From a virus: a stretch of 64,000 nt of DNA. Made by a program: the position numbers and the translations under genes. The stretch lies in UHGV virus genome UHGV-1375844. The stretch is one strand, 5' to 3'. The notes beneath the pieces are model-generated. The model saw nothing but the letters and a program-made list of their open reading frames with translations, did no database searches and had not been told where the DNA came from. This document shows, one piece after another, positions 18,767 through 24,826 of this stretch (the first letter of the stretch is position 1; each line of letters opens with the position of its first letter).

Positions 18767-19126
18767 TTAGCCTTTCTTCATCAGCTCGCGCTTGATCTCG
18801 TCTGTGCGCATCGTGACGTCAGCAGCGGTGATCGCCTCGTTCAGTTTCACAATGTCCTCGATTTCCTGCGGCGACTTCTCTGCCAGATGGTAAATGGCTG
18901 CACGAATCACGTCAGAACGGGTGAACTTCTCAAAGCGAGGGATGAATTTCATCATCTCCAGCAGATCGAAGTATTCGTCCTCCAGCGACATGGTACGGCT
19001 CTTTATTTTCTCTTTCCCACGAGTCGGGCGGCCCTGTGGTCTGACTGGCTGGCGCAACGGCGTGCTGTTTTTGGCCGGAGCATCCGGTTCTTTGCGCTTG
19101 GCAAGGTCTCCCATCTTCATGGACAT
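18767..19126 (-). CDS. Small basic protein, candidate ParA partner (centromere-binding, ParG/ParB-like role)
   Basis: 119 aa, basic N-terminus; start/stop junction with parA. Confidence 0.4.
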   Translation of the reverse strand: MSMKMGDLAKRKEPDAPAKNSTPLRQPVRPQGRPTRGKEKIKSRTMSLEDEYFDLLEMMKFIPRFEKFTRSDVIRAAIYHLAEKSPQEIEDIVKLNEAITAADVTMRTDEIKRELMKKG

Positions 19127-19791
19127 TACTCTTCCTCCAGACTCAAGATATAATCAACAAACTGTTCAAACTCGGCTTCTGCCTTCTTGTCGCGTTCGGC
19201 GCCAGTCATTTCAAAGATAGAGCGACCAGCCTCTTCTGCATCATCGTAAACGTTACGGTTGTACAAATTGACCGGTGCAGCTTCGATACCAAACGTCTCA
19301 ACGATTTCTTTGGCGGCCAGAATACGCGACACCTGGGAAGGTAGTGACGGGCACTGGTTGATAACGGCACGTATTTTCACCTTCTCGTTCACATTGCGTA
19401 CATTGTCGATAATCGGGTCGATGTCGCGCAGCGATTTCAGGTCACGACGTTTAGGGCGCAGCGGTATGACGATAACATCAGCCATCAGCATAGCTTGTCG
19501 CTGGATTTCGGAGTCGAAGCCCCCTGCGTCTACAACCACGTAATCGAAGCGCCCCTGAAGCGATTTGAGATGCTTAACGACGTCTTCCTGAACGTAAGCG
19601 AAAGGAATGAGATCGAGATCTTCATTCTGTCGACGGTCTTCGCACCAGCTGGTAGTGGTGCGCTGGATGTCGATGTCGGTAACTTGGATTTTCTTTTTCT
19701 TTTTGACTTTCAGGCAAACCGCTATTTGCTGGGCAACGGTCGATTTACCCGGGCCACCCTTCGTGCCGCCAACCACAATGATCCTAGTCAT
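19126..19791 (-). CDS. parA: ParA/MinD-family partition ATPase
   Basis: Deviant Walker A GGTKGGPGKST at the N-terminus; 221 aa; unusual KKKKKI insertion encoded by an A-rich tract (19681-19700). Confidence 0.75.
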   Translation of the reverse strand: MTRIIVVGGTKGGPGKSTVAQQIAVCLKVKKKKKIQVTDIDIQRTTTSWCEDRRQNEDLDLIPFAYVQEDVVKHLKSLQGRFDYVVVDAGGFDSEIQRQAMLMADVIVIPLRPKRRDLKSLRDIDPIIDNVRNVNEKVKIRAVINQCPSLPSQVSRILAAKEIVETFGIEAAPVNLYNRNVYDDAEEAGRSIFEMTGAERDKKAEAEFEQFVDYILSLEEE

Positions 19792-20736: not shown

Positions 20737-21104
20737 CTTGTAGCAGAGTCATCAGCCTTAACCGTACTGACAATGCTACCATGATTACGTAAGAAGCGGC
20801 GAATAGAATGTTCAATAACCTCCGAAAAAGCCTCGATAAAACGAGACAGCTCAGGGTACTGTTTGGCTGGCTTCACTACAAAACGAACACGACCATTCAG
20901 GTAAATTGCTTCAGCCAACGGTTTCACGCTTGCACCGGCGCGCTCGACATCGTCTTTAAAGGTAACGATGAAGCGTGAGTCTTCAGGTTCAATAGCGTCG
21001 TTATTGAGCTTACGTACTTCGAGCTTGTGCTGATGCAGCACATGAGTCTCGATAATACTCGTGCAATCGCGAATAGTTTGTATAGAACGTTTCTCGTTCA
21101 GCAT
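20721..21104 (-). CDS. Hypothetical protein (127 aa)
   Basis: ORF track. Confidence 0.45.
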   Translation of the reverse strand: MLNEKRSIQTIRDCTSIIETHVLHQHKLEVRKLNNDAIEPEDSRFIVTFKDDVERAGASVKPLAEAIYLNGRVRFVVKPAKQYPELSRFIEAFSEVIEHSIRRFLRNHGSIVSTVKADDSATRWLLH

Positions 21105-21346
21105 GTGTCCACCTTAGCCGTTAACACAAGTGTCATTGCGGCACCCCTTCCGGGGTTAAAGGCTACGAGTATGCGTAGCTTGTATGTGTCCCACTTACGT
21201 GGATGCCTAATAAATCTACATCAAATTGCTAAATGGTTCAACATGAGGTTGCGTGAACAGGCGTGTATACGGGTGAAGATGCCATCTTTAGGATAAAAGG
21301 TAAATTGGAGGCGCCACATAATTTCTGGCGCCCATAAATCACCAAC

Positions 21347-21574
21347 TCAGCTCCGGTGCTCCCACTTACACAACCTTTCACCTATCGTATTGTGGATAAG
21401 CAGCTGTCGCTCTGTTTCCTCGGTCATAAAATCCTCTCTACTCACATAGATAGGATTTGCGGCATCGCAGAATTGTACGCCCAAGGTCTGGGGTTTAATC
21501 ACGCATCCACTTATCGCGAAGCTCGCGATGAATGGCAGAAGCATCCTTAGCCCTGACTTCATTAATCGTTTCAT
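21347..21574 (-). CDS. Rz1-like o-spanin lipoprotein
   Basis: Signal peptide + lipobox (LLPFIASFAISGC); 75 aa; 80 nt of its 5' end overlap the 3' end of the Rz-like gene in another frame. Confidence 0.5.
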   Translation of the reverse strand: MKRLMKSGLRMLLPFIASFAISGCVIKPQTLGVQFCDAANPIYVSREDFMTEETERQLLIHNTIGERLCKWEHRS

Positions 21575-21746
21575 TTTTCACATCCACTGTGTTCTGAAGC
21601 CGTTTCCTGTCGTCTTGCCGCGCCTTTTCTTCCATTGCTTGCCGCGCCGCACGACCACCCATCGTATAGGCGCCTGCAAGCACTAAAAGAACGGCAGCCG
21701 CGGTAATCAGAGCAATCTTTAGCTTCGAAAATAGGCTGCCGAACAT
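21495..21746 (-). CDS. Rz-like i-spanin
   Basis: Internal ATG at 21746 with AAAGGA RBS (MFGSLFSKLKIALITAAAVLLVLAGA...); N-terminal TM helix then charged coiled-coil; the longer ORF-track frame (to 21944) overlaps the upstream gene and is taken as spurious. Confidence 0.5.
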   Translation of the reverse strand: MFGSLFSKLKIALITAAAVLLVLAGAYTMGGRAARQAMEEKARQDDRKRLQNTVDVKNETINEVRAKDASAIHRELRDKWMRD

Positions 21747-21747
21747 A

Positions 21748-22440
21748 TCAGACGATTCCTTTCTGATGCTTTCTGACCTGCGACCAGGCAATGAAGCCGG
21801 CCACGACGATAGTTGCGATCCCGAAGACGATGCGGATCGTGTCACCGCTGGTAATGTGGCCCTGTGCCTTGTCCATTGCCACCGATACCTGTGGCATGAC
21901 ATCGGCCAGCTGCGCCAGGCCAATACCTGCCGTAACGGTCGCACCGGCAGTCTCTTTGGTAACGGGAACAGCTTTTACAGTCTTTACCGGTTTGACAATG
22001 CCGGCACGTCGCAGACCTTCTTCGATAAGCTCGGATGCATACCAGGTATTTGGTGTTTTCAGCGGACCTCGACCATTTTCGTGTCTGATGATCGCCTCTA
22101 CCAGCGGTCTTAGGGTCTCGTAGTCATGTAAATCGATCACCATGTCCGGCGTGACACCAACAGCTTTGGCCACCTCATTCACGTAAGCCACAGTGTTGTT
22201 CTCATGTGGAGGCGCCCAGCGCTCAATAACTTCGCGGATCGTGTCGATGCTTGAGCCGTCTTTGGCTCGACGTTTGTCATGGTAGGTGATGAGCGTAACT
22301 GCCAATGCGCGAATCCCCCATACGGGATCTTTGAAAGTGCAGAAGCGCGGTTCTGAAGGGTTGTCGACTAAGCCCTGCCACGGCGAACCTTTATCAAGAT
22401 TGCCAGGGTTGTTGTTGCGAATACCTCTTGGAGTTTTCAT
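21748..22440 (-). CDS. Putative endolysin / peptidoglycan hydrolase-like protein with C-terminal TM helix
   Basis: Position between holin candidate and Rz/Rz1; N-terminal RGIRNNNPGNL motif that I associate with phage lysozyme-like proteins (recall only); C-terminal hydrophobic helix IVFGIATIVVAGFIAW. Confidence 0.4.
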   Translation of the reverse strand: MKTPRGIRNNNPGNLDKGSPWQGLVDNPSEPRFCTFKDPVWGIRALAVTLITYHDKRRAKDGSSIDTIREVIERWAPPHENNTVAYVNEVAKAVGVTPDMVIDLHDYETLRPLVEAIIRHENGRGPLKTPNTWYASELIEEGLRRAGIVKPVKTVKAVPVTKETAGATVTAGIGLAQLADVMPQVSVAMDKAQGHITSGDTIRIVFGIATIVVAGFIAWSQVRKHQKGIV

Positions 22441-22451
22441 CCTTGATCTCC

Positions 22452-22787
22452 TTATTGCAGTCCATTTTTAACGCCGTAAGCGGCCAGCCCCAACAGCAGT
22501 ACGGTAATCAGGAACGACGTAATCTTTGAGACAATGCCGCCAAAAAACCCGCTGGAGATGGAGTCGAGCCGATTAAGAAGTTTGTCCAGATTTGAATGCT
22601 GGATGCTGTGTTGTGCCGGGGTCATATCGCCAAAGTAGGTCTTGAGCTGATCGTTAACTTCCTGACCAATCTCCTCGCGCAGTTCTTTGCCCAATTTGCC
22701 GACTACCTCGCGGGCAACAATCGCGGCAATGCGCTCTACCTGCTCTGGCGTTACGCCTGCCATCTCGTTCGACATTATTTCCTCCAT
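22452..22787 (-). CDS. Putative holin (position-based), C-terminally anchored membrane protein
   Basis: 111 aa; single C-terminal TM (ITSFLITVLLLGLAAYGV); first gene of the lysis cassette. Confidence 0.35.
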   Translation of the reverse strand: MEEIMSNEMAGVTPEQVERIAAIVAREVVGKLGKELREEIGQEVNDQLKTYFGDMTPAQHSIQHSNLDKLLNRLDSISSGFFGGIVSKITSFLITVLLLGLAAYGVKNGLQ

Positions 22788-22838
22788 GAAAAGTCAAATC
22801 GGGATGGCAGGGTTATAACACATTAGCAAACAATTTTG

Positions 22839-22857
22839 TAGGTAAGCACTTACTTAT
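22839..22857. repeat. Intergenic palindrome family, copy
   Basis: taggtaagcacttacttat. Confidence 0.6.
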
Positions 22858-22865
22858 TAATGCAT

Positions 22866-23690
22866 TTAAACACGGGTGCCATGAATTGTGCCAACCGTCA
22901 CCCACGTTGGGGCATTACCATTAACAGCAGCGCCACCAGCCCCACCTGCATACGGGGTGATATTCTTCCCCCCTCCAGACTGCGAAGCAGCTGCACCAGC
23001 GGAACCCAAGTCACCACCTTTCCCGCCAACAGATGTTCCAAGGCTTGTGGAGGTATTCCCTGCACCTGGAGCCGTAAGCGAAGCATTGCTGCCGTTGCCA
23101 CCGCCGCCGCTGGGGTAGGTTTTTGTACCACCGACGCCAAATGGTCGCCCGCCGCCGCCGCCTGAATAAGTTGGTTTATTATTACCAGCCCCAACAGCGC
23201 CGCCGCCTCCACCACCGCCTCCAATAATGCCGTTATTTTGGATGCGCAGTTTGCTTCCGATGGCATTGGTGATCGCAGGACCGCCCGGCTTACCTTTGTT
23301 GGCATCGCCGTTTCCTCCACCGCCGCCATTTCCCCCACGGCCAAGCACCATTTGTCCCGAGTTAATCACAAGCAAGATATAAGCGCAGCTGGCAAGCTCG
23401 CTTGTAAAATTGAGACAGGGCGCACTGGCAGAACTCGACACAATGGTACCGGTGATGTTGACTCTGATGGCGTTGTCCTTCACGCCTAAAGACTTAATCT
23501 GATTGACTAGAGTAGACCAGGAATAGTTGTTGTTCGCTGAAACATTGATGACCTGCTCTCTGGACTTGCCTACCAGGGTTTTCATCCAGAAAGGGGCGCC
23601 AACCCGTACAGATCTGCCGGCAGCTGACATCCATCGTTGCCCAGTCTCACTTACTGCGGAGGAGCCAACCCATCCGGAGTTGATGGTCAT
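22866..23690 (-). CDS. Tail fibre / receptor-binding protein 2, glycine-rich C-terminal domain
   Basis: Start re-placed at ATG 23690 (MTINSGWVGSSAVSETGQRWMSAAG...); N-terminal ~40 aa paralogous to 25124..25681; long poly-Gly runs (GGGGGGGG). Confidence 0.6.
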   Translation of the reverse strand: MTINSGWVGSSAVSETGQRWMSAAGRSVRVGAPFWMKTLVGKSREQVINVSANNNYSWSTLVNQIKSLGVKDNAIRVNITGTIVSSSASAPCLNFTSELASCAYILLVINSGQMVLGRGGNGGGGGNGDANKGKPGGPAITNAIGSKLRIQNNGIIGGGGGGGGAVGAGNNKPTYSGGGGGRPFGVGGTKTYPSGGGGNGSNASLTAPGAGNTSTSLGTSVGGKGGDLGSAGAAASQSGGGKNITPYAGGAGGAAVNGNAPTWVTVGTIHGTRV

Positions 23691-23694
23691 TTTC

Positions 23695-23840
23695 TCATCT
23701 CCTTGAGTTCCATAACCTCTTTTTCGACGCTTTAACAGCTTCGACCATAATCCCAATGATACCGTTACATTTCAGACGAAGGCGTTCTTCTCCTGAATGG
23801 TCGTTTTTATCGGCTGTAACCAGCTCTGGTTGCAACTTTT
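23695..23840 (-). pseudogene. Remnant of a tail-fibre C-terminal intramolecular-chaperone domain
   Basis: Start-less frame KLQPELVTADKNDHSGEERLRLKCNGIIGIMVEAVKASKKRLWNSRR aligns with the C-terminus of the L-shaped fibre (KVQPELVTVDKNDQSGEERLRLNYNGVIGLLVEAVKELRDEI); DNA homology to 25681-25840. Confidence 0.6.
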
Positions 23841-23941
23841 ACATCTCGGGCGGTCAAGCTACCCGCCATCTTGCCCGACATCATTTCCTTAATGAAAGTC
23901 AGTTCAGATGGCAGGTAATACTATACTTTTTTTACCGGTCT

Positions 23942-23961
23942 ATAGGTAAGCACTTACCTAT
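23942..23961. repeat. Intergenic palindrome family, copy
   Basis: ataggtaagcacttacctat. Confidence 0.6.
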
Positions 23962-23975
23962 ATAACAAGCTAATT

Positions 23976-24221
23976 TTAGGATTTTGGGCAGTTGATGGAG
24001 GTGAACGCCCCTTGCCCCACCCAACGCCAGTTAAAAATACTCCCGGCCCGATAAAGCGTATACTTACCTTCTTTCTTGATCGCATAAATTGGCACACTCG
24101 TTGACGAACCGCCAACCATTGCCTTCCCATAGCAAACAGGCTCTGGTAATTTTTGACAGGCGCTCAATGTAAGTGTTACGCCTAGTAATAAAACTAATTT
24201 CTTCATTTTATATTCCATCAT
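23976..24221 (-). CDS. Small lipoprotein (candidate Cor/Llp-like superinfection-exclusion protein)
   Basis: Signal peptide with lipobox (MKKLVLLLGVTLTLSAC); ~60-aa mature part; sits inside the receptor-binding gene cluster. Confidence 0.5.
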   Translation of the reverse strand: MMEYKMKKLVLLLGVTLTLSACQKLPEPVCYGKAMVGGSSTSVPIYAIKKEGKYTLYRAGSIFNWRWVGQGAFTSINCPKS

Positions 24222-24826
24222 CCGTAGAGATTTCTGTTTAAGACTGGAACTCGGTTGTTGATAGCAAGGCTCGCCCCTCCATTAATTTCATTAACAAGGA
24301 TAGAACTCACGGTATTTCCGTAGCATGTGTAGCCGTAAACCAGCGTCTTAGCGCCACCCGGCATTGGAATAGCAAAGGCGTTAGCGTAAGTTGGCACAAC
24401 CGCTACCGGATAATTGAATACGTGCTTATCATTACTGTTCCAGCTATTATTATCAAGAAATGTGAAAGACAGTGGGATATTTGCCGTGTTATAGATCTCA
24501 ACCCCTGAAGAATTGAAAAAACTCATTCCCCATTTTTCTTTTCTGGTTATGCCCGTAGCGAAAACATACACAGTTACGTTTGAATCACTCCCACGTCCAC
24601 CGAAGCTGTAAATAACCTGGTTATTGCGAACTATACGATTCGCAAGCAGTGAAACAGCTTTTGTATACGCCACGAAGACCATAGGGGACCGATCAGGAGA
24701 TAGTCCCGTATTGAACTCGCTCCCCCCTTTCAGTGAGACAACATGTTTGCTCTGGAAAACCAGAGGCGTAAGGCTTGGAGACATCCAGACCTTTCCATCA
24801 GATCGAACGATTTTGCTTCCGTACAT
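24218..24826 (-). CDS. Hypothetical protein (202 aa), tail-fibre locus
   Basis: ORF track; start overlaps the upstream stop (TAATG). Confidence 0.45.
   Translation of the reverse strand: MYGSKIVRSDGKVWMSPSLTPLVFQSKHVVSLKGGSEFNTGLSPDRSPMVFVAYTKAVSLLANRIVRNNQVIYSFGGRGSDSNVTVYVFATGITRKEKWGMSFFNSSGVEIYNTANIPLSFTFLDNNSWNSNDKHVFNYPVAVVPTYANAFAIPMPGGAKTLVYGYTCYGNTVSSILVNEINGGASLAINNRVPVLNRNLYG

What the first reader, a model, noticed from the sequence alone, without database searches (positions are those of the whole stretch)
21347..22787. Lysis cassette with unusual topology: C-terminally anchored candidate holin and lysozyme-like protein, and an embedded Rz1
The order holin candidate, endolysin-like, Rz-like, Rz1-like fits a canonical cassette, and the Rz1 lipoprotein gene overlaps the 3' end of the Rz gene in another frame (21495-21574). 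Both the candidate holin and the lysozyme-like protein have a single C-terminal hydrophobic helix rather than the N-terminal TM or SAR arrangement that is usual, so the mechanism of endolysin release may be atypical. The endolysin call rests on position and on one motif I recall, not on a search.
Basis: partly seen in the sequence, partly recalled or inferred. Interest (0 to 1): 0.4.

Follow-up and report, generated by a model that had tools for sequence, protein, structure and literature searches.

The report
Phage-plasmid lysis cassette, membrane-anchored endolysin
This is the four-gene cell-bursting cassette of an SSU5-type phage-plasmid; its wall-degrading enzyme belongs to an already described unusual class that carries its membrane anchor at the tail end, and only the small first gene, a tail-anchored membrane protein, remains uncharacterised.

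Summary
The four minus-strand genes exist where stated and are under strong purifying selection. The window is an SSU5-like phage-plasmid: about 82% nucleotide identity to Salmonella phage SSU5, and 99.4% to a Salmonella enterica plasmid.

**Endolysin (22440-21748).** It is a clear full-length member of the Enc34/M4Lys/Chi family. It matches PDB 7Q47 at E=1e-56, and the catalytic Glu, Trp and Tyr are conserved. The C-terminal membrane domain is also homologous. This class, and its unexplained export, have been published since 2019-2022.

**Spanins.** Rz and Rz1 are Chi-family spanins. Their architecture is overlapped, not embedded.

**Holin candidate (best start 22775, 107 aa).** It is unrelated to the Chi-type holin and to any named holin family. 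It belongs to phrog_5093 (function unknown), a family of roughly 100-140 aa proteins with a C-terminal transmembrane helix and an invariant H-x3-H motif. Distant relatives sit directly upstream of endolysins from five different families. Where the endolysin is of another type, a second small membrane protein lies alongside. A lysis role is therefore well supported, but holin versus holin regulator stays open.

**Verdict.** The finding is largely known biology, with modest interest.

The parts
22452..22775 (-). Holin candidate, 107 aa. An alternative in-frame ATG at 22787 would give 111 aa. It is a tail-anchored small membrane protein of family phrog_5093.
   Evidence: phrog_5093 at E=1.8e-68; no Pfam or NCBIfam hit. 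GGAGG lies 6 nt before ATG 22775. 97% amino-acid identity to the SSU5 'putative holin' at 87% nucleotide identity, pN/pS 0.024.
22467..22535 (-). C-terminal transmembrane helix of the holin candidate (residues 81-103). Only 4 residues follow it.
   Evidence: KD19 maximum 2.11. Strongly conserved, including Ser, Thr and Gly positions (A4, A6). The low-confidence AF2 model gives helix 79-103.
22596..22610 (-). H-x3-H motif (His56...His60) inside the conserved core YFGDMTPxQHxIQHxxLDKLL.
   Evidence: G49, H56 and H60 are the only invariant columns across 31 family members at 23-56% identity.
21748..22440 (-). Endolysin, 230 aa, of the Enc34/M4Lys/Chi type: an N-terminal PHA02564 glycosidase domain plus a C-terminal membrane domain.
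   Evidence: PDB 7Q47 E=1e-56. phrog_873 'endolysin' E=4.5e-87. 55-58% identity over 99% of its length to Chi-like endolysins. Foldseek 7q47 E=4e-16, TM 0.81.
21991..22440 (-). Enzymatically active domain (residues 1 to about 150). Catalytic Glu121 is the codon at 22078-22080; Trp75 and Tyr86 also belong to it.
   Evidence: W75, Y86 and E121 align with Enc34 Trp79, Tyr95 and Glu131 (alignment; PMC8943055). All three are invariant in A1 and A5. pLDDT is 86-96 over residues 41-150.
21883..21951 (-). Marginal hydrophobic segment of the endolysin (residues 164-186). It is rich in Gly, Ala and Thr and is preceded by the conserved PVTKET motif.
   Evidence: KD17 1.18 and 52% G/A/S/T; family mean 1.2 and 54%. 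P159, T161, E163, A167, G174 and P183 are invariant in A5.
21778..21837 (-). Strong transmembrane helix of the endolysin (residues 202-221), followed by the basic tail VRKHQKGIV.
   Evidence: KD19 2.06. The tail carries net +3, family mean +2.4. The AF2 model gives helix 199-226.
21495..21746 (-). Rz i-spanin, 83 aa. It has an N-terminal TMD (about residues 8-29) and a charged helical periplasmic part.
   Evidence: phrog_1026 'Rz-like spanin' E=1.6e-24. KD19 2.22. 33% identity to Chi gp4. The start lies 1 nt after the endolysin stop.
21347..21574 (-). Rz1 o-spanin, 75 aa, in the +1 frame. The lipobox is ISG-C, with Cys24 at 21503-21505. It overlaps Rz by 80 nt and extends 148 nt beyond it.
   Evidence: phrog_1275 'Rz-like spanin' E=1.4e-24. 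SGC, C36 and C69 are conserved with SSU5 and Chi. Kongari 2018 places the SSU5 o-spanin in the Chi family and lists SSU5 among the overlapped type.

Best explanation
This is the late lysis cassette of an SSU5-type phage-plasmid.

**Shown by homology to characterised proteins.** The 230-aa protein is an Enc34/M4Lys-type peptidoglycan glycosidase, most probably an N-acetylglucosaminidase. Its C-terminal membrane domain is homologous to that of the Chi-like phage enzymes. Rz and Rz1 form a Chi-family two-component spanin with overlapped genes, which completes lysis by disrupting the outer membrane.

**Inferred.** The enzyme is made without a signal sequence. It is held at the inner membrane by a C-terminal hairpin made of one marginal SAR-like segment and one strong TMD. 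The charge pattern predicts N-in/C-in, which would leave the catalytic domain on the cytoplasmic face. Access to the wall depends on this membrane domain itself, as in M4Lys, and not on passive diffusion through a canonical holin hole. The membrane domain would act by perturbing or perforating the membrane once enough protein has accumulated.

**The first gene.** It encodes a tail-anchored protein: about 75 cytoplasmic helical residues, an H-x3-H motif, one C-terminal TMD, and almost no periplasmic part. It sets or triggers the timing of lysis, either as a holin of a new topological type or as a regulator of the hole-forming element.
For: **Identity of the element.**
- 82% nucleotide identity to SSU5 across the genes annotated holin, endolysin, Rz and Rz1.
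- 99.4% identity to S. enterica plasmid pSA20094620.2.
- parA lies nearby.

**Endolysin.**
- 7Q47 at E=1e-56, with the catalytic W, Y and E invariant.
- Fold match with TM 0.81.
- Full-length homology to Chi-type enzymes, TMD included.
- Published experiments on homologues: the Enc34 EAD is muralytic and the full-length protein is toxic (PMC8943055). M4Lys alone lyses E. coli, azide does not block it, the TMD is required, and the EAD plus the Chi-type holin does not lyse (PMC7143992).

**Topology.** Over 26 family members, the stretch before the first segment averages net +2.2, the loop -1.5 and the tail +2.4. This agrees with the N-in/C-in prediction for Siskin (PMC6498227).

**First gene.**
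- Extreme purifying selection, pN/pS 0.024.
- 57 family representatives, about 100-140 aa; every member inspected has a C-terminal TMD, and G49, H56 and H60 are invariant.
- Relatives sit immediately upstream of endolysins from five PHROG families: 873, 894, 822, 2649 and 669.

**Spanins.** PHROG hits, N-terminal TMD, lipobox, and homology to Chi.
Against: - No experiment exists on any SSU5-type protein. Every functional statement is transferred from homologues at 55-61% identity (endolysin), or rests on gene neighbourhood alone (first gene).
- The first gene has no detectable similarity to any named holin family. It also lacks the charged C-terminal tail typical of holins.
- The M4Lys authors predicted the opposite topology, N-out/C-in. 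The marginal first segment scores below usual TMD thresholds here (KD19 about 1.0), and its AF2 confidence is below 50.
- Holin-independent lysis by M4Lys may be an artefact of over-expression, as the Enc34 authors themselves note.
- In cassettes with other endolysin types, a second holin-like protein accompanies the phrog_5093 member. Its role is therefore ambiguous.
Confidence: 0.8

Rival explanations
1. Self-exporting endolysin plus regulator. The C-terminal two-segment domain of the endolysin is itself the hole-forming (holin-like) element. The phrog_5093 protein is not a holin but an antiholin or timing regulator acting on it.
For: - M4Lys alone lyses cells. Its TMD alone is bacteriostatic, and truncating its tail abolishes lysis.
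- The C-terminal domain is highly conserved, with invariant Gly, Pro, Ser and Gln positions, which is more than a passive anchor would need.
- One homologue (L013) has lost the catalytic Trp and Glu but keeps the membrane domain.
- In all six cassettes examined with other endolysin types or on short contigs, the phrog_5093 member is accompanied by a separate small protein with hydrophobic segments. One of these matches phrog_8226 'holin' at E=4e-10. SSU5-like cassettes have no such separate gene.
Against: - The C-terminal domain has no sequence similarity to any holin family. Scanned alone, it matches only phrog_873.
- The first position in the cassette is the usual holin position.
- The regulator idea has no direct support for this family.
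Confidence: 0.35
2. Canonical holin. The phrog_5093 protein forms large holes that let endolysins through. The endolysin TMD only concentrates the enzyme at the membrane.
For: - It is the first gene of the cassette and is tightly linked to the endolysin by an 11-nt gap.
- Relatives precede endolysins with no N-terminal hydrophobic segment, namely Peptidase_M15_3, Amidase_2 and M15_4, which need a hole to escape.
- The TMD is highly conserved with small and polar residues, consistent with helix packing.
Against: - Those same cassettes hold another holin-like membrane protein.
- There is only one TMD, with almost no extramembrane C-terminus, and no similarity to known holins.
- In the Chi system the TMD-less enzyme is not released by that phage's holin, although that holin is unrelated to this one.
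Confidence: 0.25
3. SAR-like mechanism in mirror image. The catalytic domain is exported to the periplasm and tethered by the C-terminal TMD (N-out/C-in). It is released or activated when a pinholin, the first gene's product, depolarises the membrane.
For: - The M4Lys authors predicted N-out/C-in with Phobius and Phyre2.
- The Enc34 authors speculate about SAR-like tethering and a pinholin.
- The first hydrophobic segment has SAR-like composition, 52% G/A/S/T.
Against: - There is no N-terminal signal. No known pathway moves a folded hydrophilic N-terminal domain of about 160 residues (about 200 counting everything before the strong helix) across the membrane from a C-terminal signal.
- Positive charges flank both ends of the hairpin and the loop is acidic. 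That pattern favours N-in/C-in.
Confidence: 0.2
4. The 230-aa protein is a virion-associated wall hydrolase used at infection, not the endolysin used at lysis.
For: The same catalytic domain occurs at the N-terminus of tape-measure, internal-virion and core proteins: phrog_7182, phrog_2276 and phrog_992, PDB 9vvp Gp29, and many T7-like 'internal virion protein' hits. The CDD name for PHA02564 is 'virion protein'.
Against: - It is a stand-alone 230-aa protein with a membrane domain, sitting between a holin-like gene and spanins.
- It is a full-length homologue of M4Lys, which lyses cells from within.
Confidence: 0.03

Closest known systems
Salmonella phage SSU5 lysis genes SSU5_026-030 (NC_018843)
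   Same: Orthologous cassette in the same order. Amino-acid identity is 97% for the holin candidate, 93% for the endolysin and 82% for Rz. Rz1 is about 70% (68% in the MAFFT alignment; 71% over the first 66 codons).
   Different: About 18% nucleotide divergence. The gene upstream differs: a Gly-rich 296-aa protein here, against a Cor-like gene directly upstream in SSU5. The C-terminus of Rz1 also differs. None of the SSU5 proteins has been tested experimentally.
M4Lys of Salmonella phage BSPM4 and the endolysins of Chi and Siskin (Chivirus)
   Same: Full-length homologues at 55-58% identity over 99% of the length. They share the same catalytic domain, the same C-terminal two-segment membrane domain and basic tail, the same position before overlapped Chi-family spanins, and the same absence of an N-terminal signal.
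   Different: The partner gene upstream is unrelated. The Chi type has an N-terminal TMD followed by a C-terminal coiled coil (predicted N-out/C-in, proposed 'class IV'). Here the N-terminal helical domain is followed by a C-terminal TMD. The host element here is a phage-plasmid, not a virulent flagellotropic siphovirus.
Enc34 ORF39 endolysin catalytic domain (PDB 7Q47)
   Same: 61% identity with E=1e-56. The all-helical fold is shared (TM 0.81). Glu131, Trp79 and Tyr95 are conserved as E121, W75 and Y86.
   Different: Enc34 has two small insertions, of 5 and 6 residues. The crystal structure lacks the membrane domain.
SAR endolysin with pinholin (phage 21 R21/S21; P1 Lyz)
   Same: A membrane-tethered endolysin whose weakly hydrophobic Gly/Ala-rich segment may leave the bilayer. 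Lysis may be triggered by membrane depolarisation.
   Different: The SAR domain is N-terminal and is exported by Sec. Here the hydrophobic segments are C-terminal, there is no N-terminal signal, and the homologue M4Lys is insensitive to azide.
Phage P2 LysB/LysC and other overlapped two-component spanins
   Same: The o-spanin gene starts inside the 3' end of the i-spanin gene in the +1 frame and runs beyond it.
   Different: No sequence relation was tested. The i-spanin here is very short (83 aa) and has no Cys. The o-spanin has three Cys.

Membership tests
Enc34/M4Lys-type endolysin (PHA02564 catalytic domain plus C-terminal TMD) | Sequence homology of the N-terminal domain to the crystallised Enc34 catalytic domain | tested here: met
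   phmmer against PDB 7q47_A gives E=1e-56 over residues 3-151. Foldseek of the AF2 model gives E=4e-16, 61% identity, TM 0.81.
Enc34/M4Lys-type endolysin (PHA02564 catalytic domain plus C-terminal TMD) | Catalytic Glu plus conserved Trp and Tyr (Enc34 Glu131, Trp79, Tyr95) | tested here: met
   E121, W75 and Y86 align to these positions. They are invariant in 4-sequence and 26-sequence alignments.
Enc34/M4Lys-type endolysin (PHA02564 catalytic domain plus C-terminal TMD) | C-terminal membrane domain (marginal helix plus strong helix plus basic tail) homologous to that of Chi-type enzymes | tested here: met
   tblastn covers residues 2-228 at about 55% identity in Chi-like phages. Conserved columns run through residues 159-228.
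Enc34/M4Lys-type endolysin (PHA02564 catalytic domain plus C-terminal TMD) | Muralytic activity, and TMD-dependent, holin- and Sec-independent lysis on expression | not testable with these tools
   Shown only for Enc34 ORF39 and M4Lys (PMC8943055, PMC7143992).
Two-component spanin, overlapped architecture | i-spanin with an N-terminal TMD and a helical, charged periplasmic domain | tested here: met
   KD19 2.22 over residues 11-29. phrog_1026 E=1.6e-24. 33% identity to the Chi i-spanin.
Two-component spanin, overlapped architecture | o-spanin: a small lipoprotein with a lipobox Cys | tested here: met
   ISG-C24, with Val at +2. phrog_1275 E=1.4e-24. SGC is conserved with SSU5 and Chi.
Two-component spanin, overlapped architecture | The o-spanin gene starts within the i-spanin gene in another frame and extends past its stop | tested here: met
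   Start 21574 lies inside Rz (21746-21495), in the +1 frame. 148 of 228 nt lie beyond the Rz stop.
Two-component spanin, embedded architecture (lambda Rz/Rz1 type) | The o-spanin gene lies wholly inside the i-spanin gene | tested here: not met
   Rz1 ends at 21347, 148 nt past the Rz stop at 21495.
Holin (functional class) | Small membrane protein with at least one TMD, encoded next to the endolysin | tested here: met
   107 aa with one TMD, 11 nt upstream of the endolysin. Relatives lie upstream of endolysins from five PHROG families.
Holin (functional class) | Hydrophilic, highly charged C-terminal domain after the last TMD | tested here: not met
   Only about 4-7 residues follow the TMD (VKNGLQ), with one Lys.
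Holin (functional class) | Membership of a described holin family | tested here: not met
   No Pfam or NCBIfam hit. Only phrog_5093 'unknown function' matches, for all 31 members. No relation to the Chi-type holin.
Holin (functional class) | Lethal, timed hole formation in the inner membrane that can be triggered by energy poisons | not testable with these tools
   No experiment on this family was found in the literature searches.
SAR endolysin | N-terminal weakly hydrophobic signal-arrest-release TMD | tested here: not met
   No hydrophobic segment occurs in the first 160 residues; the only KD19 window of at least 1.0 there starts at residue 33. The hydrophobic segments are C-terminal.

The most novel reading that the evidence does not exclude
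The phrog_5093 proteins are a new, widespread class of tail-anchored lysis proteins with a cytoplasmic H-x3-H motif. They act as a holin with an unprecedented topology or as a dedicated antiholin. In SSU5-like elements this protein controls an endolysin whose own C-terminal hairpin is a built-in hole-former. The cassette would then be a 'self-exporting endolysin plus regulator' system, not a holin-endolysin pair.
Probability: 0.25. Interest if true: 0.6.

Novelty: new member of a known kind. Interest (0 to 1): 0.3.

Why it matters
How endolysins with a C-terminal membrane domain reach the cell wall is an open question raised by the Siskin, BSPM4 and Enc34 studies. Those papers treat the architecture as confined to Chi-like phages.

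This window shows the same enzyme and spanins in SSU5-type phage-plasmids. These elements are very common in Enterobacterales: 642 plasmid records hold the cassette. Here the enzyme is paired with an unrelated first gene of mirrored architecture.

That gives a natural swap experiment for asking which partner does what. It also flags an uncharacterised family of lysis proteins found next to five endolysin types.

On the practical side, RefSeq annotates all of these genes as 'hypothetical' in the near-identical plasmid and omits Rz1. The annotation can therefore be improved.

Tried and rejected
1. **Homology between the holin candidate and the Chi-type holin.** BLASTP gives E=0.61 and hhalign gives probability 0.5%. 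Rejected; the two are only analogous.
2. **Homology between phrog_5093 and the tail-anchored small proteins upstream of C-TMD endolysins in an Alcaligenaceae prophage (L007) and an Orrella prophage (L008).** A tempting F-x-D-x2-P-x2-H-x3-H match appears in L007. However, hmmsearch gives E about 0.1 and hhalign gives probability 1-6%. Not demonstrable.
3. **AlphaFold model of the holin candidate.** pLDDT is 45, so I did not use it for fold search.
4. **Scanning the endolysin C-terminal 81 residues alone for holin families.** Only phrog_873 matches. The full-length Pfam hits (DUF6187, DUF3851, SLATT_1) are far below their cut-offs.
5. **The search for related loci with the family alignment or with one remote member in viral contigs.** No usable pattern and no confirmed locus. 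I sampled contexts by exact-protein look-ups instead.
6. **Dual-start motif in the holin.** Met5 of the 107-aa form is not conserved in the family. Rejected.
7. **Promoter and terminator scan of 21000-24300.** No minus-strand sites were found. The cassette looks like part of the late operon that follows the tail-fibre genes.
Full report
**Observation.** Four consecutive, tightly packed ORFs lie on the minus strand of window 21347-22787.
- A small protein, 111 aa from ATG 22787 or 107 aa from ATG 22775, ending at 22452.
- A 230-aa protein (22440-21748), 11 nt downstream behind an AGGAG site.
- An 83-aa protein (21746-21495) that starts 1 nt after the preceding stop.
- A 75-aa protein (21574-21347) that starts inside the previous gene in the +1 frame.

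The last two genes overlap by 80 nt, and 148 nt of the last gene extend beyond the overlap. I prefer the 22775 start for three reasons: GGAGG lies 6 nt upstream, homologues begin MSNE..., and both SSU5 and PGAP annotate 324 nt.

**Origin.** The segment is 82% identical to Salmonella phage SSU5, where the corresponding genes are annotated putative holin, endolysin and Rz-like spanins. It is 99.4% identical to S. enterica plasmid pSA20094620.2 (IncFIB, 106.6 kb). In all, 642 plasmid records from Klebsiella, Escherichia, Enterobacter, Citrobacter, Salmonella and others hold the cassette. A ParA-like gene lies 1.5 kb downstream of the cassette. The window therefore comes from an SSU5-type phage-plasmid. 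In the near-identical RefSeq plasmid the first three genes are annotated 'hypothetical protein' and Rz1 is not annotated at all. NCBIfam and Pfam have no model for any of the four.

**These are real genes.**
- PHROG profiles match all four: phrog_5093 at 1.8e-68, phrog_873 'endolysin' at 4.5e-87, phrog_1026 at 1.6e-24 and phrog_1275 at 1.4e-24, the last two named 'Rz-like spanin'.
- Against SSU5, synonymous sites are heavily diverged (pS 0.49-0.68), yet pN/pS is 0.024 for the holin candidate, 0.062 for the endolysin and 0.18 for Rz.

**The endolysin.**
- The protein matches PDB 7Q47, the catalytic domain of the phage Enc34 endolysin, at E=1e-56 over residues 3-151.
- An AlphaFold model built on 26 homologues has pLDDT 86-96 over residues 41-150. 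It superposes on 7Q47 with target-normalised TM 0.81 and 61% identity.
- Cernooka et al. identified Glu131, Trp79 and Tyr95 as catalytically important (PMC8943055). These correspond to E121, W75 and Y86, which are invariant in my alignments.
- That paper shows the domain is muralytic and is a remote, helix-permuted relative of the lysozyme alpha-lobe (GH73/GH23-like).
- Bai et al. found N-acetylglucosaminidase activity for the homologue M4Lys (PMC7143992).
- Homology is not confined to the catalytic domain. Chi-like phage endolysins align over residues 2-228 at about 55% identity. The C-terminal 70 residues contain many invariant positions: P159, T161, E163, A167, G174, P183, A188, S198, G207, A218 and Q221.

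The protein is therefore a full member of the Enc34/M4Lys/Chi class, membrane domain included. In the phage collection, 789 records have the catalytic domain but only 182 cover at least 80% of the protein. In the other records the domain is part of tape-measure, internal-virion or core proteins (PDB 9vvp Gp29).

**Membrane domain and topology.** Hydropathy gives one strong helix, residues about 202-221 (KD19 2.06), followed by VRKHQKGIV. It also gives a marginal segment at about 164-186 (KD17 1.18, 52% Gly/Ala/Ser/Thr, with an internal Asp and Pro). Across 26 family members, the stretch before the first segment averages net +2.2, the loop between segments -1.5 and the tail +2.4.

By the positive-inside rule this is a helical hairpin with both ends in the cytoplasm. 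That is the topology the Siskin genome paper predicted, 'two C-terminal TMDs, N-in, C-in' (PMC6498227). The M4Lys authors predicted N-out/C-in instead. There is no N-terminal signal or SAR segment.

**What is already known about the mechanism.**
- M4Lys alone lyses E. coli within 20-60 min.
- Azide does not block it.
- Removing the TMD, or only the last 13 residues, abolishes lysis.
- The TMD alone is bacteriostatic.
- The TMD-less enzyme co-expressed with the Chi-type holin does not lyse.
- Full-length Enc34 ORF39 is toxic, whereas its catalytic domain alone is not.
- The Enc34 authors state that no known pathway moves an N-terminal hydrophilic domain across the membrane from a C-terminal signal. 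They leave the mechanism open.
- A 2024 study of BSPM4 treats ORF37 as the holin and ORF52 as an antiholin (PMC11657625).

It was published for homologues between 2019 and 2024.

**Spanins.** The 83-aa protein has an N-terminal TMD (KD19 2.22) and a charged helical remainder. The 75-aa protein has the lipobox ISG-C24 and three Cys. They are 33% and 43% identical to the Chi pair. Kongari et al. list SSU5 among the overlapped spanins and put its o-spanin in the Chi family (PMC6139136). 'Embedded' in the finding's title is therefore the wrong class; 'overlapped' is correct.

**The first gene.** This is the least-known part.
- It is unrelated to the Chi-type holin (BLASTP E=0.61, hhalign probability 0.5%). 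The Chi-type protein has an N-terminal TMD and a C-terminal coiled coil.
- Here, about 75 helical and acidic residues precede one C-terminal TMD (residues 81-103, KD19 2.11), with four residues after it.
- A TMD at the extreme C-terminus can only insert after translation ends. That follows from general knowledge of tail-anchored proteins. The predicted orientation is therefore N-in/C-out, with almost nothing in the periplasm.
- Close homologues (at least 64% identity) occur only in SSU5-like elements.
- A profile search of 1.84 billion representatives found 57 proteins with E<1e-3, mostly about 100-140 aa. Every member inspected has a C-terminal TMD. The core is YFGDMTPxQHxIQHxRxDxLL...D..S.NFWG, in which G49, H56 and H60 are the only invariant residues.
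- All 31 aligned members match phrog_5093 (function unknown) and none matches a Pfam family.

**Neighbourhood test.** I looked up eight distant family members on their contigs.

| Locus | Gene directly downstream of the phrog_5093 member |
|---|---|
| L013 | C-TMD endolysin (phrog_873) |
| L010 | Peptidase_M15_3 endolysin (phrog_894) |
| L012 | Amidase_2 endolysin (phrog_822) |
| L015 | VanY/M15_4 endolysin (phrog_2649), after a 38-aa ORF |
| L014 | 3-TMD protein matching phrog_8226 'holin' (4e-10), then a phrog_669 endolysin with an N-terminal hydrophobic segment |
| L005 | the SSU5-type C-TMD endolysin (Providencia SSU5-like element) |

The remaining two contigs (L009, L011) are only about 1 kb and show small membrane proteins downstream.

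Association with five unrelated endolysin families makes a lysis role very likely. However, every cassette with a non-C-TMD endolysin also has a second small protein with hydrophobic segments. These are the 85-91 aa two-TMD proteins in L010 and L012, the phrog_8226 holin in L014, and a 100-aa protein in L015. SSU5-like cassettes have none, but there the endolysin itself carries two hydrophobic segments. This pattern fits either of two readings. In the first, phrog_5093 is the holin and the other protein its regulator, in the order seen in P2. In the second, phrog_5093 is the regulator and the multi-TMD element is the hole-former. In SSU5-like elements that element would be fused to the endolysin. 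I cannot separate these readings in silico.

**Most likely mechanism.**
- Shown by homology: a glycosidase endolysin with a homologous C-terminal membrane domain, and an overlapped Chi-family spanin.
- Inferred: the enzyme accumulates on the cytoplasmic face, tethered by the hairpin. Its access to the wall depends on that membrane domain. The tail-anchored first-gene product sets or triggers the timing. The spanin then removes the outer membrane.

I put 0.8 on this overall description. Within it, I put about 0.35 on the self-exporting endolysin plus regulator version. I put about 0.25 on a canonical holin and about 0.2 on a mirror-image SAR mechanism.

**Novelty and interest.** The cassette is orthologous to one annotated in SSU5 since 2012. 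The unusual endolysin class, its structure and its puzzling export are all published.

Three things are not in the papers I read:
- The class is present, with its membrane domain, in the very abundant SSU5-type phage-plasmids. The Enc34 paper says the architecture appears limited to Chivirus and some related viruses, and its text does not mention SSU5.
- Its partner gene has been swapped for an unrelated protein of mirrored architecture.
- That partner belongs to a wider uncharacterised family with an invariant H-x3-H motif, found beside five endolysin types.

I rate it a new member of a known kind, with interest 0.3.

Noticed in passing
L013:2868-3563 (metagenomic contig, Logan SRR30563942): A 231-aa homologue of the endolysin sits behind a phrog_5093 gene and before an Rz-like gene. 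It lacks the catalytic Glu (RHENG becomes VMYNG) and the conserved Trp (ERWAPP becomes a different sequence). It keeps the C-terminal membrane domain and the PLTKES motif well conserved. This hints that the membrane domain has a function of its own.
   Followed up: partly
L016 = NZ_CP030187.1 35784-37064 (99.4% identical to window 21200-22900): In this near-identical RefSeq plasmid, the holin candidate, endolysin and Rz are annotated 'hypothetical protein'. The table used here lists no CDS for the Rz1 o-spanin. The PLSDB gene table is stated to be incomplete.
   Followed up: partly
window ~21486-21495 (Rz stop / middle of Rz1): Enterobacter plasmids (H86-H88) are 97% identical to the window from query position 287-293 onward. 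That stretch covers Rz, the endolysin, the holin candidate and beyond. The match stops right at the Rz stop codon, so the distal two-thirds of Rz1 and the downstream DNA differ. This looks like a recombination boundary inside the o-spanin gene.
   Followed up: no
L005:3231-4225 (Providencia SSU5-like element): Two extra genes (103 aa and 227 aa, no TMD, no Pfam hit) are inserted between the endolysin and the Rz gene. The cassette is split in this lineage.
   Followed up: no
L010:3291-3566 and L012:3300-3557: A conserved 85-91 aa protein with hydrophobic stretches (core ARPY.T..V.TVFN..C.WGV..GK.S..D....IGP.N..I.GFWFGER; my KD19 scan at the 1.5 cut-off resolves only one segment) follows the endolysin where a phrog_5093 gene precedes it. 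It matches phrog_6637 only weakly. It is a possible holin or antiholin partner.
   Followed up: partly
window 22866-23756 (-) and 23976-24221 (-): Directly upstream of the cassette lies a 296-aa protein very rich in Gly (GGGGGNG runs). The matching region in Enterobacter plasmids is annotated 'receptor-recognizing protein'. Further upstream lies an 81-aa lipoprotein (MKKLVLLLGVTLTLSAC...) in the position of the SSU5 Cor superinfection-exclusion gene.
   Followed up: no
window 19126-19791 (-): A ParA-like partition ATPase lies 1.5 kb downstream of the lysis cassette. This matches SSU5_033 and the plasmid lifestyle of the element.
   Followed up: no
phage record PQ800163.1 (Klebsiella phage Kpn_R1, 2959 bp): A GenBank record of only 2.96 kb consists essentially of this cassette, at 80% nucleotide identity and 94% amino-acid identity for the holin candidate. 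It may be a cloned lysis module that someone is studying.
   Followed up: no
L007:2205-2504 and L008:2242-2499: In two betaproteobacterial prophages the gene directly upstream of a C-TMD endolysin is also a small protein with an N-terminal coiled coil and a C-terminal hydrophobic helix. The L007 protein carries FPDGDPESHRRYHES, which resembles the FGDMTPAQHSIQHS core. Homology is not statistically supported.
   Followed up: yes
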